Shown here one piece after another: positions 1 to 9,092 of a stretch of 64,000 bases of DNA. Made by a program: the position numbers and the translations under genes. Source of the DNA: Microbotryum violaceum (lineage: Eukaryota). The stretch is from NCBI GenBank assembly GCA_001244265.2, contig CDLV01000005.1, positions 1,426,001 to 1,490,000 of the forward strand, read 5' to 3'. The notes under the pieces are model-generated. The model was not told the origin of the DNA and searched no databases. It worked only from the letters and a program-made list of their open reading frames with translations. Position 1 is the first letter of the stretch. Every line of letters begins with the position of its first letter.

Positions 1-129
1 TATATCCAATTACACCTTTACCAGCACTTTCCCACTGCCACTACTACGTCCTGTCTATTGCCCATGCATGCTCCCCCACGGCATGCCGCCGCTTCAGCGC
101 TGCCGCCCACCACCCCTCGTGCTCGGCCC

Positions 130-1508
130 CTAATCCGAATAGGCGGCCCTTTCTTGAGTTGCGGGGCGGTCACCATCGAAAAAGGCCCGTACGGCTGATG
201 CAAGCGCCGTAGTCTCTTTTTCGAAGTCTTGTTCTGAGCATCCAGTGCCGGCTGCGCGACGCTCGACCGGATCGGGGGCGGGTGGGAGGTCCGGTTTGGC
301 CTTGACTTTTTCGACCGCCAATACCGTTCGTGATGTCCCAACACCACACCAGCCCGTCAGATCCCTCCGGGTCATCCGGTCCGCTGGCTGTTCCGCCCGG
401 GAGTGGATGCGCCATGTATCTATTGACGGTGTGAACGAGGTAGCTGGTATCCACGGAGCTGTGGGTATACTGCGCGTTTGCCTGCTTGTTGTTGGCATCC
501 GGATTAGCCCGCTGATCTCTGAAACTGATTGATTTGATCCGAAGCACATCCCTTAAGCTTTCGGCCCTCATATCGGGTGACCCAGCACGCTACTTCCCAC
601 CCAATCAACGCGACGACGGTGGTGATCCAGCGTCGACGGTAAGGAAGGTCGACTTTTCGATGTGTCGAGGCCTTGGTGCCTCCAAGCAAAAGAGGTCGCA
701 AAATATTATTCACAGTATCGTCATTCCCGTAGAGGGCAAAAATATGCTCCCGTCTGCCGAACCTCGAAACGCTCTTTGCCCTCTACGGGAATGACGATAC
801 TGTGGAGAATATTTTGCGTCCTCTTTTGCTTGAAGGCACCAAGGCCTCGACACATCGAAAAGTCGACCTTCCTTACTGTCGAAGCTGGATCACCACCGTC
901 GTCGCGTTGATTGGATTGGAAGTAGCGTGCTGGGTCCACCTCGAGGGACGGGAGGCAGGTTGCGGCGCATCGTCATTGCCAGCCGCGCGCGCGCTGCAGT
1001 GCATGCAGCGCCTCGCTCAGCATCCACTCGGCCGAGAATTTGACAGGCGCAGGGGCACCCACCGGTGCTGTTCCAGGTAAGGATTGCCATATATAGTCGC
1101 TCTCCAGGAACTCCTTGGCTCGAGTGGCCGCTAGCTTGCGCACGTCCTTGAGATTCGTCGAAACATAGATCTTGGCCATCGAGACCAGCTCGGACTGCCA
1201 GTTCGGAGATGGCGAACAATTTGATGGTCATCGTGGCATCATAGTAGGAGAAGCGGGTCAGAGAGGATCGCGTTTCTTGCCAAGCGCGGCCACTTGCGTT
1301 CACCTCGTAGTTCTCTAAGTACTTTGGGTCTTGGCGCAATTCATACGGAACCACTTCCTGGAAGCCAGCACCACAGTACATGCGCGACAGGATGAATCGA
1401 AAGTCGCTTAGATGATCGGGTTGGATCTTGAATAGCTGGTATTGTCGTACCAGGGCCCTCAGCTCGTCCCGGGCCTCCTGTTGGTCGATCGGCTCGCCAT
1501 TGTACGAC
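130..1508 (-). pseudogene. Fragmented coding remnant of unknown family, possibly with a D..ExK (PD-(D/E)XK-like) segment
   Basis: Protein-like frames on the minus strand: 1508-1180 (PIDQQEARDELRALVRQYQLFKIQPDHLSDFRFILSRMY...), then after a frameshift 1179-973 and 939-721 in one frame separated by a single TGA (...ARGWQ*RCAATCLPSLEVDPARYF...RKVDFSMC...IVIPVEGK), with more fragments at 571-130. Mismatches between the duplicated copies are mostly synonymous or conservative in these frames. Confidence 0.55.
579..936. repeat. Long inverted repeat 1: arms 579-740 and 775-936, 34-nt spacer
   Basis: GACCCAGCACGCTACTTCC...CCCGTAGAGGGCAAA is the reverse complement of TTTGCCCTCTACGGG...GGAAGTAGCGTGCTGGGTC. 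Arms are 162 bp with about 8 mismatches and no internal indels (manual alignment). Confidence 0.97.
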
Positions 1509-1822
1509 GTTAGCTCCTGATGCGATACTCCGGACCAGCTCGTCAGTGTACCTTACAGTCTTCCATTGTGGCTCTTCCTTTGTCTTCCTTCGCTTCCGAG
1601 AGGTCGCACAAAGGCGGGCCGATCGACCAACAGGAGGCCCGGGACGAGCTGAGAGCCCTGGTACGACAATACCAGCTATTCAAGATCCAGCCAGACCACC
1701 TTAGCGACTTTCGATTCATCCTGTCGCGCATGTACTGTGGTGCTGGCTTCCAGGAAGTGGTTCCGTATGAATTGCGCCAAGACCCAAAGTACTTAGAGAA
1801 CTACGAGGTGAGCGCTAGTGGC
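1289..1822. repeat. Long inverted repeat 2: arms 1289-1508 and 1603-1822, 94-nt spacer
   Basis: 220-bp arms with about 11 mismatches and a perfect run of about 109 bp. The peptide MYCGAGFQEVVPYELRQDPKYLENYEV appears in both ORF 890..1381(-) and ORF 1520..1957(+). Confidence 0.97.
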
Positions 1823-2613
1823 GAAGCGGCGGCATGGAAGCAACTCGAGCATGGGCAAAGGACAGGACGTAGTGGCTGGCCGGTTGCCAAAGGCGACCAA
1901 CGGGCGCGCCGAGCGAGTCGAAAGGCGAGTGCGGTGGGAATCATTCCCTCTTACTAGAACCAACGATTCTCGCTCGCAACATCGCCTGTTGCTCGCTCGA
2001 AACTCCATAATTTTTTGCTTTCCCGCCCGCCTCCCCGGTTTGCCTCCCCTTGCTTGCGCTGCCCCGCCGGTTTCTTCGCGGGGCCGTGTCGTGGGGAAAT
2101 TCGCCCCAAGCCCAAACCAAGCCATCTATTATGTAATCACTATTTATATCAACAGAGTTCGGCACAAACTTCGTTCAGTCGGATACTGTTCGTCGTATTA
2201 CTTGGCCGACACGAGACGCTCGACGAGCGACCAAGCACCAGTGCTTGTAACCCATCTGGCTGTGTGGGCTTTGGATCGACCCTCGCGCTCGATCTCAATA
2301 CGAGGCACCCCTCCAAGTTGGCATACTACGTCTCGTCCACTTTGTGCAATAATGAGATGACAAACATGCGTTTCGGTATTGAGGCAATTGCACTTGCAAA
2401 ATCTGCGAGAAAGCTTGTATTCGGTACGCGTAGCATCCCCACATCGCCGAGAATCCGAAATTCTGAATGGCGAATCGATTCAAACTCAAAAGATCCACTT
2501 ACAAGTCCCGGTAAACATAATTCTGAATCCGATGCGACCCCCTCGTCCTCGCCTCGCCTCGCCTCTTGCTTGTCTCCTCCGCGCCAAAGCTCGCTCAGCA
2601 CCACATCGAGATC

Positions 2614-3642
2614 ATGTTCGGCAACTACCTCGGCATCGGCAACAAAGGTGGTCCCTCCGGTAAACGTAATTCGAGACCTTCGAAAGCTTCCGTAAGTACC
2701 TTAGCTGGACGACGGCTCAGAGAGTGTGCTGCGGTCAAGGGATGAGCTGACGGGGCCTTGGGGACGTTTGACTTGGCTTGACTGCACTTCCATCATGGTT
2801 GGTATCGTAGCCGGATACGAGGTGTCAGAAATGTGAAGGGCTAGGACATTATACCTACGAATGTACTGGACAACGGTACGCCCCACCTCTCTCTCTACCT
2901 TCACTCACATGCTCGCACCTCCAACCACCCCTGCTGACCTTGTTCTCTCGCAACCACCCCAAACAAAAAAAGACAATACAAAGAACGCCCTACCCGAACT
3001 CAACAATTGAAGAACCCCAAACTGTGGACCAAATCGAATGGTCAAGCACCTCCAGCTGAAGTGGATCCTAGGAGGTCTGCGAGTGCTGCCACTTTGAGCG
3101 CAATGATCGAATCGTCCTCGACTGCTGTTGAGTTGCCACCCAAGTGAGTTACACCTTTGGTTTTTGGTGTTGCTGCTTCAGGTAAGATGGGGAACGTTTG
3201 CTGACTGATTTTTTTGTTGGTGTGATCGATCAGAGAAGGAACGGCGGCGATGATCCTCGCTGCGAATGAAGCTAAACGAGCTCGACGATTGGCGAGGGAA
3301 AGGGAAGAAGCTTCTAGGCGGGGGAGGTCCAAGAGTAGAAGTTCCTCGAGTGGGAGTAGTAGTCGGTCTAGTTCGAGCAGTCGGTCGTATTCGAGTTCGA
3401 GTAGTAGGTCCAGGAGCAGGAGTAGGAGTCGGTCCAGTCGTCGCTCGAGGTCAAGGGATAGTAGGAGTCGTAGCCGATCGAGAAGTATTTCGAGGAGTAG
3501 AAGCAGGAGTAAGAGTCCAGTGAGGAAGACGAAGAAAGGTCGTTCAAGTGTGAGCAGGAGTAGGAGTCGATCGCGCTCTGTTTCGAGGTCGAGGTCGAGG
3601 TCAAGGTCGCCACCTGTTAAGAGGAGCCGAAGGGATGATTGA
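2614..3642 (+). CDS. ZCCHC10-like zinc-knuckle protein with RS-rich C-terminus (about 4 exons)
   Basis: ATG at 2614 (MFGNYLGIGNKGG...KAS|gtaagt). Exon from 2811 reads PDTRCQKCEGLGHYTYECTGQR (CCHC knuckle), the next reads QYKERPTRTQQLKNPKL, and the last exon is an RS tract ending in TGA at 3642. Confidence 0.85.
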
Positions 3643-3953: not shown

Positions 3954-5569
3954 TCAAGCCGCCCTACGACTAACGATACTTTTGCCGACCTCCTCATACT
4001 CATCCTTCCCAATCCAAAGTTGATGGAACGTACCCAAACTAGCCAAGATACTCGCACCCAACCAACTCGAATGAACCCTCTCACTCGGACTCGAAGCCGC
4101 ATGAATCTTGACCTTTGCATTGCCCGCCATCAATGCCATTTCTGCGGAAAGACGATCGACGAAGCCTTGGGAGAGCGTGGTTCCACCTGTGACGACGATG
4201 TTGCTGAAGAAGGTGGAGTGGAGATCGGGGTCGATCTGGATGAGGGACGAAGTGATGAGTTTTTGGAGGGGGAGGAGGGAGGAGTAAGGGTGCGAAGGGA
4301 TGGTCGAGGCCGAGCTGGGGAGCGGGAGGGAAAGGAAGGACGAGGGGAGGTATTTGGAAGGGTTGAAGAGCACTTCGGGGACGGTGTTGCGTGGTGTGGG
4401 GCCGAAATACGAGTTGAAGCCGTTGGGGAACTCGAACGGTCGCGTCGGCTTGGTCGCGAGCAGTCTGTGCGGGGTGGGGAAAGGGCGAGTCAGCACGGGC
4501 GGGCGTGGCGGAATATGTTAGCCCTACCACGCACTCGTCGCTCCAGTTGGGTGTGGTGAGGAACTCGCAGGTGGTCTCTTTGAACTCGTGCATGACGCGC
4601 ATCTGCTGCGAGAGGTGGTACGAAGGCGTAGTCGGGCACGAGGGGTCCTCCGGATTGGGCATTCGTTCGTCCCTGTGATTGTCACGAGAGATCATTTAGT
4701 GTGCTATGTATGCCCAACTGGACATGATGGCTTACCTAAGCTGAGCCTTTGCTGGCTGATTGGGATCGACGGCGGTCTTTTGTTGGACGAGGTAATGCGG
4801 CACAATCTCGACGGGCGGTTCCTGAGTCTTGAGGCTGTCGAGCAGCAGTTGCGACAAGAGACGACCGCCGGTCGGTTGTTTTTGAATAGCTGTGCGATGC
4901 CAATCCAGGTCAGCTTCTTCCCATTGGCTTGTTCTAATCGGTTTCGGTTTCCGCGTGCGCACCTTTTCGGAGCACGAATCCGTCATAGATGGGGGTGATG
5001 GTCGTGAGTTCGTGTCCTACATCGACGACGAGTGCCGATCCTTTTCCAGAGGCAAAGCTGTGCCGGTAGGTTTGCAGTCAAGTTAGTGAACAAGGCTCAC
5101 AAGCCAGTCTGTCACCAGCTTGGACTGACGCGGACATGACGGCCTTGTCGACGGCATAGTACGCCGGTGCGTGGTACTTTTCGAACGCCAACTCGCACAT
5201 CTTCTCCTTGTTGCTCTGCGTGTTCCAACTCGGTTCGGTCGTCAAAAGGGGAAACTCGGCGAGGTTCTCGAGGCGCATCCGGTCAAAGAACGCATGGTCG
5301 ATCGCCCTCTCCGCTGCTTCCCAATCGGTGACCAACCCATCCGAGATGAAAGTCGAATGCACGGCGTGGGGGCGGTAAAGGTGCACCGAGTTGCCGTGGC
5401 TGTAGGAAGGGGTCGGATCGGCCTCGGACGCGGGTACGGTCGAGTAGACGGAGGGGAAGATCGTCTTGGGCGTGTCTTCGCCAGCGTAACCGGCGCGTAC
5501 CGTGTCCGAGCCGATGTCGAGTACGAGCGCGGATACTTCGTCGCCACCGTATTGCACGGGTGGAACCAT
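3954..5569 (-). CDS. ARP4: Nuclear actin-related protein Arp4/BAF53 (multi-exon)
   Basis: N-terminus YGGDEVSALVLDIGSDTVRAGYAGEDTPK; also LLTTEPSWN, NIVVTGGTTL and SWLGASILASLGTFHQLWIGKDEYEE. Confidence 0.95.
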
Positions 5570-7296: not shown

Positions 7297-9092
7297 ATGA
7301 ATCGGCAAACCGCCTCCGGGACGGCTCGTCTCGCCGCCGTCACGCTGCTCCTGACCGCCCTGCTTCTGGCTCAGTGCGGTCCAACCCTCGTCAATGCGAT
7401 CCCCACACCCGCCGGCGAGGGACAGGCTGTCAAAGTGGCGAATGTTCGACCAATAGATTCGACGGCAGTCAAGTTTTCCGCTGAACGTGAGTGGCTTTCA
7501 TCATGCTTCGGGTGGGCCATGTTGTGTGTTTCGGACAACCTCCAGTTAGGAGCTTGGGACGCGGAGCATTTCCGACGGAGGTGGTTCGGCTCCACTTTAC
7601 TTTGATTTTGAGCATGTTATCGCCCCATACCCAAGGAACGCAAACTAACTAACAACGTTTTATAATTTACGTACCCGTGTTTTGTACCGGCCTGCGATTT
7701 TACTAGTTCCGCGACAACTTCCCCAATGCGGATCGGCATGGATCAAATTCGGTAACTCGGGCAACGTGCGACCGCTGACATTGGTGCTCGCCTTGCAAGA
7801 GAATCTACCCATCGCACTCGTGAAAGCGAATGCCAAGACGACGCTCGATGAGGTGAAAATGCTAGGCCCTTTTCAGGTGATCGATAATATCCGCAGTCTG
7901 GACAGAATTGTTCACCCATTTCAACCTCACCGTAGGAGAGGCGATGTCGTCGAGGTTAGCCCGCTCCGTTCTATCCGAGCAGATTGTGTGTCTGTCTCTG
8001 AATTACGTCGCTCTCTTCCCCTGTACAAACAGTTCTTTGCATTCTTCCCCAACGGCACCGGCTACAACATGAACCTAAAGCGCGTGATTCAAACGGGATC
8101 GGCGAGTTGTCTCACGCCGAAATGCAAGAAGGGTCAATACCTGAGCGCGGCTAGTAAGGTCCAGGCCTGAGATCGTTCCAAACCGAACCACAAATTCGAA
8201 CCAAGAAAAACTCGGCTAATGAAACGCATCTCTCTCCGTCTTCGTCTTTCAGCGAACGAATGCACGTCCTGTCCACCCAACGCCTCGGAGTGCGATACAT
8301 CCGGTCGAGCGACCAAATGCAGTTATGGTATCCTCACGAATGGCGAGTGCATCAAAAAGTTTTGTCAACGCTCCACCAACATTCGAGGTGCGTCCGAGAA
8401 AAACTAAAGCATTCACGGTTCTAGATCAGTGTACTGGAATTGACGTCGTGTCGCTCTCGCAGGTGATGAATGTTGTACCGATGGGATGGCCGAAACGTGC
8501 TCGGATGCGAATACCACTCTGACGTGCAGGAAAGGTTGGAAGCTGCTCAAGCCTTCGAACGATACGGTGCTCGTGGCCCTAGACGGTTTTGCGAATGGAA
8601 CCTTGGTCGATGCTGATCGTTGTCAGGGACCGTATGCGGCTCACTTCGGCGGTGAGTCTCCCCTCAGGGAGGACCAGTACTCTCCACTGGTCGTGTTCTC
8701 GAAGCTTATCAACTGACCCGACAGAGCTGCCGTACACTCTCAATTTCTTAGGTTCGAAACAACAGTTCGTAGCCCCGAAAGACGCTCCTTGGAACTGGAA
8801 AATCGGCAACCAGTTATCCGTTGAAGAATGTGCACTCGCTACTCTCTTCCCTTCCTCACAAAACAACGATCGCGTCTTCTTGTACGAACGAAAGAACGGT
8901 TATTTCAATTGTCGAGCTTTTCATCGACAGGAAATCAAGTTGGAATTCAAGGGATCGGGGGGGAGGTACGATTTTGGGACGGGGGGAACTTGTGCGGAGG
9001 CGAGAGTGAGTTGGCCTTTCGCGGCGGAGTATTTTGATCGGGTGGGTTGCGAGGACATTGTGGTTCGTGAGACCCGTCAATGGGAGTTATAG
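7297..9092 (+). CDS. Secreted cysteine-rich protein with furin-like repeats (multi-exon)
   Basis: Signal-peptide-like LAAVTLLLTALLLAQCGPTLVNA-IP. Cys-rich exons CKKGQYL, ECTSCPPNASECDTSGRATKCSYGILTNGECIKKFC and ECCTDGMAETCSDANTTLTCRKGW. Final exon ends RQWEL*. Confidence 0.7.

What the first reader, a model, noticed from the sequence alone, without database searches (positions are those of the whole stretch)
579..1822. Broken gene fragment folded back at both ends: twin long hairpins, candidate hpRNA/siRNA locus
Seen: a central minus-strand coding remnant (775-1508) has an inverted copy of its 3' end on the left (579-740, 34-nt loop) and an inverted copy of its 5' end on the right (1603-1822, 94-nt loop). 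A transcript from either strand would form 162-bp and 220-bp dsRNA stems of about 95% identity. Established: long near-perfect hairpins are Dicer substrates, and closely spaced palindromes are usually unstable. Inference: this may be a retained silencing locus aimed at a multigene or selfish-element family, or the scar of an inverted triplication or template switch.
Basis: partly seen in the sequence, partly recalled or inferred. Interest (0 to 1): 0.75.

Follow-up and report, generated by a model that had tools for sequence, protein, structure and literature searches.

The report
Transcribed twin-hairpin transposon remnant in smut
A scrambled, transcribed copy of a transposon-borne gene in an anther-smut fungus folds into two long hairpins that match the only intact copy of that gene, so it may act as a natural silencer like maize Mu killer, although no small RNA or silencing has been shown.

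Summary
Both inverted repeats are real (162 and 220 bp, 95%) and not a misassembly: their junctions recur in a Microbotryum silenes-dioicae annotation and in sequencing runs. 579-740 is native sequence and 747-936 is the inverted copy, and the rearrangement extends 2 kb upstream of the window.

The locus is a broken, inverted copy of a five-exon orphan gene carried at one end of a low-copy TIR transposon. One RNA run covers it with locus-exact contigs across both loops, and Dicer and Argonaute domains are in the genome. The only intact gene found lies on one mating-type chromosome, with no copy on the other. The right hairpin shows arm-to-arm homogenisation; the left has decayed neutrally.

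Best reading: a template-switch scar that works like a Mu-killer hairpin locus (0.5). Rivals: inert scar (0.38), mating-type drive suppressor (0.08). Small RNAs, transcript strand and silencing are unshown, and no transposase was found. The scan had not noted this element, but it noted similar fold-backs in other transposons of this genome.

The parts
1..740 (-). Native, collinear 3' part of the broken gene: 3' flank, exon 5 (about 133-512, frameshifted), intron 4 (513-552, donor lost) and most of exon 4. It continues upstream of the window to a transposon-like terminus at G000:C3:1424571.
   Evidence: 92% to C2:3171940-3173035; tblastn with P0001; splice signals; terminus
43..111 (.). 3'-flank stretch that is complementary to 1807-1873 (a weak outer third stem)
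   Evidence: 72% over 69 nt, 92% over 25 nt
579..740 (-). Left hairpin, left arm: native exon 4 sequence
   Evidence: collinear with the C2 copy; 70 of 142 21-mers match the intact gene exactly
741..746 (.). 6-nt filler at the first template-switch junction
   Evidence: absent from the C2 copy; read through by P0003; bridged by RNA contig 652-863
747..936 (+). Inverted copy of 190 nt of exon 4. 775-936 is the right arm and 747-774 is most of the 34-nt loop.
   Evidence: 96% to the reverse complement of C2:3172874-3173063; 45 of 142 21-mers of 775-936 match the intact gene exactly
937..946 (.). 10-nt filler at the second junction; an 8-nt word is repeated on both sides of the inverted piece
   Evidence: bridged by RNA contig 885-1471
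947..1604 (-). Native, collinear middle of the gene: start of exon 4, intron 3 (994-1062), exon 3 (frameshifted), intron 2 (1195-1303), exon 2 (1304-1516), intron 1 (1517-1556) and part of exon 1 up to the inversion break
   Evidence: 92% to C2:3173056-3173713; introns defined on the intact copy and read in the window
1289..1508 (-). Right hairpin, left arm: native exon 2 plus 15 nt of intron 2
   Evidence: 11.5% diverged from the C2 copy; 7 of 200 21-mers exact
1509..1602 (.). 94-nt loop: the unduplicated tip next to the inversion break
   Evidence: bridged by RNA contig 1483-1637
1603..1822 (+). Right hairpin, right arm: inverted exon-2 copy joined by a 2-nt microhomology. It is partly of another paralogue's haplotype and has a 109-nt perfect run with its partner arm.
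   Evidence: site patterns and permutation P=0.005; junction; 20 of 200 21-mers exact to the intact gene
1823..1876 (+). 54-nt inverted piece of the element's 3' flank, of the C5 paralogue's haplotype
   Evidence: 94% to C5:1619139-1619192
1877..2241 (.). High-copy 365-bp dispersed repeat with TG..CA ends that closes the locus; not part of the element
   Evidence: 43 matches, 40 of 78 candidates scored; ends
2614..3641 (+). Neighbouring spliced host gene; used only as the control that run X7 is RNA
   Evidence: three GT..AG joints in X7 and none in X9, X17 or X20

Best explanation
The locus is the wreck of one copy of a low-copy TIR DNA transposon in a Microbotryum anther-smut fungus, and it now works like a Mu-killer-type hairpin locus. 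Shown: the element's five-exon gene was broken inside exon 1 and its body inverted relative to its 5' part. The right breakpoint carries an inverted exon-2 copy (right hairpin), and a local double template switch inverted and duplicated part of exon 4 (left hairpin). RNA crosses both loops, and Dicer and Argonaute domains are in the genome. Inferred: the RNA runs mainly on the + strand, antisense to the old gene. It folds into 162-bp and 220-bp stems that Dicer cuts, and the siRNAs (mostly from the left stem) can hit the one intact copy on mating-type chromosome C2. The locus arose by accident; its persistence may be passive or only weakly selected.
For: Anatomy and junctions with microhomology and fillers. 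The upstream 5' piece and the window piece abut at the same two bases of the intact copy (C2:3173712-3173713). Transposon-like terminus: 9 matches against 0 for the reversed control and 22 against 1; five 307-365-bp MITEs carry it at both ends. An intact 367-codon, four-intron gene exists on C2. RNA run X7 has locus-exact contigs 1-426, 406-604, 652-863 and 1483-1637 (0 differences) and 885-1471 (1 difference), and loose ends that match the upstream junctions. All four old introns are unspliced in them, and a C5-type paralogue contig is spliced at a + strand GT..AG intron, 461-544. Two Piwi loci and one Dicer-dimer locus. The junctions are shared with M. silenes-dioicae models P0002 and P0003. 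Right arms are homogenised: 4 derived sites shared by both arms and a 109-nt perfect run, P=0.005. Two residues are identical between the arms within each assembly but differ between assemblies.
Against: No small-RNA data and no silencing test. The left arms share 0 derived changes and differ by 2 synonymous and 6 non-synonymous changes (pN/pS about 1), which is neutral decay. G-U-compatible mismatches show no strand preference (5 on +, 6 on -). The homogenised right hairpin is 10-11% diverged from the intact gene, with only 27 of 400 exact 21-mers, so it is not being kept matched to that target. Arm-to-arm conversion is also a passive property of inverted repeats (established knowledge). No transposase or autonomous element was found, so there may be little left to silence. 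Unspliced introns do not prove the strand: one donor is lost and two are weakened, and Ac-killer hairpin RNAs also retain introns. No listed RNA contig bridges beyond 1637 (354 pieces not shown). One other long close inverted repeat turned up in 418 kb of held DNA, so such scars are not rare here.
Confidence: 0.5

Rival explanations
1. Inert repair scar. Origin as above, but the RNA is ordinary read-through from decayed transposon DNA, yields few or no functional siRNAs and affects nothing. Spacers of 34 and 94 nt and 5% arm divergence make the repeats stable enough to drift to fixation.
For: Neutral decay of the left arms and no strand bias of G-U pairs. Poor match of the right arms to the intact gene. 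The C5 pseudogene, which has no hairpin, is also transcribed antisense. The intact gene differs from P0001 at 5 of 326 residues, about the rate of the pseudo-ORFs here (8 of 421), so it shows no clear present constraint beyond an open frame. Another close inverted repeat lies in held DNA.
Against: RNA crosses both loops in a genome with Dicer and Argonaute domains, and such stems are hard to keep away from Dicer (established knowledge). The left arms give 115 of 284 exact 21-mers to the intact gene. The structure has lasted while its left arms diverged by 5%.
Confidence: 0.38
2. Autosomal hairpin suppressor of a mating-type-linked selfish gene, as Nmy and Tmy suppress Dox in Drosophila simulans. 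The intact gene on C2 would bias transmission or harm haploids of one mating type, and the hairpin would be kept by selection to silence it.
For: C1 and C2 each carry an STE3 receptor and share near-identical ends. The intact gene lies 237 kb from the C2 receptor, and none of 20 protein matches is on C1 (17 of 17 candidates scored). The frame is intact in two assemblies. In M. silenes-dioicae it is on the same contig as the orthologue of its C2 neighbour. Mating-type-linked haplo-lethals are reported in Microbotryum (passage).
Against: Non-recombining regions collect transposons anyway (passages). The gene sits at a transposon terminus and has only one intact copy, with no expanding family. 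No drive phenotype or toxin-like domain is known. The hairpins do not track the target's sequence. The two genes on contig C006 are 337 locus tags apart, so synteny is weak.
Confidence: 0.08
3. Assembly artefact (fold-back chimera).
For: Closely spaced inverted repeats are a known long-read artefact (recalled). No raw long reads could be laid, and no listed contig spans the whole stretch.
Against: The arms differ by 5%. P0002 and P0003 from another assembly read through the same junctions and fillers. RNA contigs bridge both loops, and a DNA contig of X17 bridges 1720-1904.
Confidence: 0.02

Closest known systems
Mu killer (Muk) of maize (PMC3440606, abstract seen)
   Same: A rearranged DNA-transposon derivative with an inverted duplication of the element's coding sequence, transcribed through the repeat and homologous to an intact copy elsewhere.
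   Different: Muk is one hairpin of about 4 kb made of transposase and TIR sequence, with silencing shown. Here there are two short side-by-side stems made from an orphan non-transposase gene, no TIR in the stems, no known active element, and no silencing data.
Ac-killer composite insertions of maize (bioRxiv 10.1101/2020.01.07.897926; abstract and section 17 seen)
   Same: Inverted fragments of a broken element, transcribed from the element's own or a flanking promoter, with introns retained in the hairpin RNA.
   Different: Those arose by alternative transposition at element ends and have dsRNA and siRNAs shown. Here the junctions are internal, carry microhomologies and fillers, and mix paralogue haplotypes.
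Drosophila simulans hpRNA loci Nmy and Tmy against the Dox family (PMC10292708, abstract seen)
   Same: A hairpin locus derived from a gene whose intact copy is confined to one sex-type chromosome.
   Different: Dox genes are an expanding, protamine-derived family with proven drive. Here the target is a single transposon-borne orphan with no phenotype known.
CMCT clade of DNA transposons (EnSpm, Plavaka, ESTA; PMC12730594, passages and section 16 seen)
   Same: CA..TG termini. Short subterminal repeats are also present, which I recall as a CACTA trait.
   Different: No consistent 2-5-bp target duplication and no transposase found. Kyakuja also has CA..TG ends, so the superfamily stays open.

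Membership tests
Mu-killer/Ac-killer-type silencer | Inverted duplication of sequence from a transposon | tested here: met
   Both stems are exon sequence of a gene lying at a repeated TIR-type terminus. Transposon status rests on the terminus and dispersal, not on a transposase.
Mu-killer/Ac-killer-type silencer | Transcription through the inverted repeat | tested here: met
   One RNA run (1 of 4 laid): locus-exact contigs bridge both loops. Strand not shown, and the far part of the right arm is not shown bridged.
Mu-killer/Ac-killer-type silencer | siRNAs from the arms | not testable with these tools
   Only assembled contigs of runs were served.
Mu-killer/Ac-killer-type silencer | Heritable silencing in trans of a cognate active element | not testable with these tools
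   Needs genetics; run X7 cannot decide it because its mating type is unknown.
Mu-killer/Ac-killer-type silencer | A cognate autonomous element with a transposase exists | tested here: inconclusive
   An intact cargo gene exists. No transposase domain among 63 of 95 long ORFs (plus one shorter) scanned in held flanks. The nearby DUF6589 element is a separate insertion.
Drosophila hpRNA drive suppressors (Nmy/Tmy) | Target gene confined to one sex-type chromosome, hairpin elsewhere | tested here: met
   STE3 on C1 and C2 only; intact gene on C2, no match on C1, hairpin on C3.
Drosophila hpRNA drive suppressors (Nmy/Tmy) | Expanding family of intact targets | tested here: not met
   One intact copy; the other C2 and C5 copies are fragments or carry stops.
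Drosophila hpRNA drive suppressors (Nmy/Tmy) | Target distorts segregation when derepressed | not testable with these tools
   Needs crosses.
CMCT (EnSpm/Plavaka/ESTA) transposons | CA..TG termini | tested here: met
   CATAG..CTATG ends on the MITEs, partly decayed; criterion.
CMCT (EnSpm/Plavaka/ESTA) transposons | 2-5-bp target-site duplication | tested here: inconclusive
   Of 5 decayed MITEs with both ends, 1 has a 2-bp match, 3 a 1-bp match and 1 none.
CMCT (EnSpm/Plavaka/ESTA) transposons | Transposase with C(2)C and H(3-4)H motifs | tested here: inconclusive
   No transposase found in held flanks.
AcademH-like DUF6589 plus helicase element | The DUF6589 and helicase genes lie between this element's termini | tested here: not met
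   That unit has its own termini and a 9-bp duplication at two loci, and is nested beside this terminus at C2:3668594 (duplication length from a passage).
Inverted triplication | One segment in three copies, direct-inverted-direct | tested here: not met
   Two different segments are each duplicated once; only an 82-nt exon-2 piece has a third copy, upstream.
DUF6532 (PF20149) proteins | Profile match | tested here: not met
   No Pfam family for P0001 at E up to 10. The Atlas feature score of 0.96 is a lead that the tool itself flags as probably wrong (5 of 10 best hits agree).

The most novel reading that the evidence does not exclude
The locus is a selected, autosomal hairpin-RNA suppressor of a transposon-derived selfish gene confined to one mating-type chromosome. 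That would be a fungal counterpart of the Dox/Nmy conflict, and could offer a molecular handle on the mating-type-linked haplo-lethality reported in Microbotryum.
Probability: 0.08. Interest if true: 0.9.

Novelty: new variant of a known kind. Interest (0 to 1): 0.5.

Why it matters
Natural 'killer' hairpin loci that start transposon silencing are described from maize, and hairpin suppressors of sex-chromosome genes from Drosophila. My two searches for a basidiomycete case gave none (0 papers; 4 papers, none on this by title and abstract start), within a library that lacks most subscription journals.

This locus is unusually testable. It is transcribed, shared by two assemblies, and its one intact target sits on a single mating-type chromosome, so the two haploid mating types are natural with-target and without-target controls. 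If fold-backs in dead transposons of this genome generally feed RNAi, they would be a route by which a fungus first recognises new elements. If not, this is a well-dated repair scar.

Tried and rejected
Link to a DUF6589 plus helicase (AcademH-like) transposase: followed, rejected because that unit has its own termini and 9-bp duplications.

Protein function: no Pfam family. HMMER over 1.84 billion representatives gave only 3 hits, all M. silenes-dioicae models of this locus. The structure model was unusable (pLDDT 37.5), so no fold search was run. Atlas structure matches all had TM 0.34 or lower.

Viral origin: no relative in viral contigs. Known RNA family: none. The bacterial promoter scan found no promoter-like site and is uninformative for a fungus. 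RIP-like decay is not evident: 4 CpG transitions among 34 lineage-specific changes.

An apparent deletion in the sister assembly's left arm was rejected; it coincides with a GT..AG stretch and is most simply a predicted intron in the gene model.

Runs: no RNA holder was listed; X7 proved to be RNA only when laid. No C2-type alleles appear in X7 contigs. This is not used as evidence of silencing, because contigs drop rare variants and the run's mating type is unknown. Contig depths were not used to rank expression. X20, guessed to be RNA, is unspliced and was treated as DNA.

The element's other terminus and its transposase were not found, and further flanks were not examined. The primary AcademH paper was not available, and no supplements were read.

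Full report
1. Observation. Both inverted repeats are present at the stated places: 579-740 with 775-936 (162 nt, 8 mismatches, 34-nt loop) and 1289-1508 with 1603-1822 (220 nt, 11 mismatches, 94-nt loop). They are far beyond chance, with E 4e-135 and 8e-176 and folding z-scores of -36 and -40 with 0 of 100 shuffles as stable. Both strands fold about equally.

2. Setting. The window is G000:C3:1426001-1490000 of a 33.2-Mb, 20-contig eukaryotic genome. The only proteins related to the coding remnant are annotated in Microbotryum silenes-dioicae, so this is an anther-smut fungus close to that species. STE3 pheromone-receptor genes occur on C1 and C2 only, and those contigs share near-identical ends. 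I infer that they are the two mating-type chromosomes and that C3 is an autosome.

3. The parent gene. An unrearranged copy lies at C2:3171565-3174180. It has four GT..AG introns and an open frame of 367 codons, and from its second ATG it differs from P0001 at 5 of 326 residues. Its history shows coding constraint: pN/pS is 0.22 against the window copy and 0.38 against the C5 copy. The other copies are a LINE-interrupted pseudogene on C5 and three fragments on C2. A protein search gave 20 matches on C2, C3 and C5 and none on C1 (17 of 17 candidates scored); the DNA searches scored only 40 candidates each, so fragment counts are lower bounds. The protein has no Pfam family and no usable model. 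DUF6532 is a weak lead only.

4. It is transposon-borne. Downstream of the gene, unrelated flanks begin at one sharp terminus followed by short repeats. The terminus pattern matched 9 places against 0 for the reversed control, and a looser pattern matched 22 against 1 (some of those are probably unrelated). Five MITEs of 307-365 bp carry it at both ends. The CA..TG ends fit the CMCT clade, but target duplications are inconsistent and no transposase was found among the ORFs scanned. A DUF6589 plus helicase element next to one terminus looked like the autonomous partner but is a separate, nested AcademH-like element.

5. True anatomy. Left to right on C3: the gene's 5' flank and first 27 codons or so, now on + (1424004-1424489); an 82-nt exon-2 piece; the terminus (1424571); the native 3' part, running to window 740 with two later repeat insertions upstream of the window; a 6-nt filler; an inverted 190-nt exon-4 copy (747-936); a 10-nt filler; the native middle (947-1604); an inverted exon-2 copy (1603-1822); a 54-nt inverted 3'-flank piece (1823-1876); and a high-copy repeat (1877-2241). 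The upstream piece and window position 1604 abut at the same two bases of the intact copy, so the gene body was inverted in place. Microhomologies of 2 and 8 nt and short fillers point to template switching during repair or replication (inference).

6. Not an artefact, and old. M. silenes-dioicae models P0002-P0004 are adjacent genes that match the window at 413 of 421 residues. They read through the 741-746 filler, part of the 937-946 filler, and the 1603, 1822 and 1876 junctions. A DNA contig of run X17 bridges 1720-1904. The left arms differ by 4.9%, more than the two assemblies differ here, so that hairpin predates their split (inference).

7. Transcription. Of 24 runs listed, none was on record as RNA; I laid 4. 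X7 is RNA: it has three GT..AG joints in the neighbouring gene and no cover at 2279-2546. X9, X17 and X20 are unspliced. X7 contigs match this locus and not its paralogues: 1-426, 406-604, 652-863 and 1483-1637 with 0 differences, and 885-1471 with 1. They bridge both loops, and loose ends match the upstream junctions. Contigs give no strand. A + strand (antisense) RNA is inferred from three things: all four old introns are unspliced, a C5-type contig is spliced at a + strand intron, and the old 5' flank now points into the gene body. This is weak, because intron 4's donor is lost and two others are weakened, and hairpin RNAs can retain introns anyway. Two Piwi loci and a Dicer-dimer locus are in the genome, in line with the RNAi set reported for M. 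lychnidis-dioicae (PMC4469406, passages).

8. Is it being maintained? The evidence is mixed. Right hairpin: the arms differ mostly at synonymous sites (6 against 3), and 4 sites ally the right arm with C2 while the left arm allies with C5, so the arms probably stem in part from different working paralogues. They share 4 derived changes and a 109-nt perfect run (P=0.005). At two residues both arms read Y,Y here and H,C in the sister models, which means arm-to-arm conversion after the split. Left hairpin: no shared derived change, pN/pS about 1, and a longest run that is unremarkable (P=0.65). G-U-compatible mismatches favour neither strand. Exact 21-mers to the intact gene number 70 and 45 of 142 for the left arms, but only 7 and 20 of 200 for the right arms. 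So the hairpin being homogenised is not the one that best matches the target. Conversion needs no selection.

9. Background. In 418 kb of held, transposon-enriched and partly overlapping DNA (37 sequences) there was one other close inverted repeat of 100 nt or more. Earlier scan notes, unchecked and read after I had formed the Mu-killer reading, list fold-backs in dead KDZ, MULE, LINE, Ngaro and copia copies of this genome. None concerns this element. They are leads only, but they made me treat such scars as common here and lower the odds of selection.

10. Mechanism and verdict. Shown: the anatomy, sharing between two assemblies, RNA across both loops, RNAi domains, and an intact homologue restricted to one mating-type chromosome. 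Inferred: the strand, folding in vivo, dicing and silencing in trans. Best reading: a repair scar that works like Mu killer or Ac killer (0.5). Membership is not established, because siRNAs, silencing and an active cognate element are untested or not found. Rivals are an inert scar (0.38), a Dox/Nmy-like suppressor (0.08; transposons pile up in these non-recombining regions anyway, PMC10502011, passages) and an artefact (0.02).

11. Papers. Abstracts seen: PMC3440606 and PMC10292708. Abstract and one section: 10.1101/2020.01.07.897926. Passages: PMC4469406, PMC10502011, PMC7898863, PMC10045372, PMC10799480, PMC12210899, PMC11343200, and PMC12730594 (plus its section 16). The AcademH description itself was not seen. 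No supplements were read; the terminus tables in the PMC12730594 supplement may bear on the superfamily. Statements on Dicer substrates, palindrome conversion and CACTA subterminal repeats are recalled. The absence of a printed basidiomycete case rests only.

Noticed in passing
G000:C1:2889439-2900520, C3:2996283-2999044 and many other loci (L167, L192-L211): A multi-copy AcademH-like DNA transposon family: a DUF6589-like ORF facing a DEAD-type helicase piece, imperfect termini and 9-bp duplications at the two loci named; 75 protein matches genome-wide. 'Academ' does not occur in PMC10502011. It suggests that DUF6589 is the Academ transposase (inference).
   Followed up: partly
L211:2024-2414 (G000:C9:508023-508413): Another close inverted repeat: 124-nt arms, 95% identity, 143-nt spacer.
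   Followed up: no
L217/L218, L220, L227, L231, L232: A decayed 307-365-bp MITE family with the same termini as the element studied and no clear target duplication.
   Followed up: partly
G000:C5:1618729-1622102 (L033): The C5 pseudogene appears to be transcribed antisense and spliced at a cryptic + strand intron equivalent to window 461-544, which hints at an inward promoter in the element's 3' end.
   Followed up: partly
L035:8261-8657 and 7607-7953 (G000:C3:1425260-1425656 and 1424606-1424952): Two multi-copy MITE-like insertions with TA-flanked ends inside the upstream part of the locus; the first has long terminal inverted repeats and could itself form a hairpin.
   Followed up: no
window 1877-2241: A high-copy 365-bp repeat with TG..CA ends that also occurs as separate 147-bp and 175-bp halves elsewhere, as for split direct repeats; LTR or Ngaro type was not resolved.
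   Followed up: partly
L169:3233-4900 (G000:C5:714232 onward): A related terminus followed by a different coding-like sequence with no Pfam match, suggesting that the family carries different cargo genes.
   Followed up: partly
L222-L225 (G000:C1:3277558; C2:3802003, 3823253, 3868598): A near-identical segment of 1.5 kb or more, three times on C2 and once on C1, starting with a terminus-like motif but with shared flanks.
   Followed up: no
L143:1281-1811 and 4396-4983 (upstream of the window): Tandem secretory-lipase genes 14-18 kb upstream of the window, beside the transposon-rich patch.
   Followed up: no
window 2614-3641: A spliced gene with an Arg/Ser-rich C-terminus directly right of the locus; three introns seen in RNA.
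   Followed up: no
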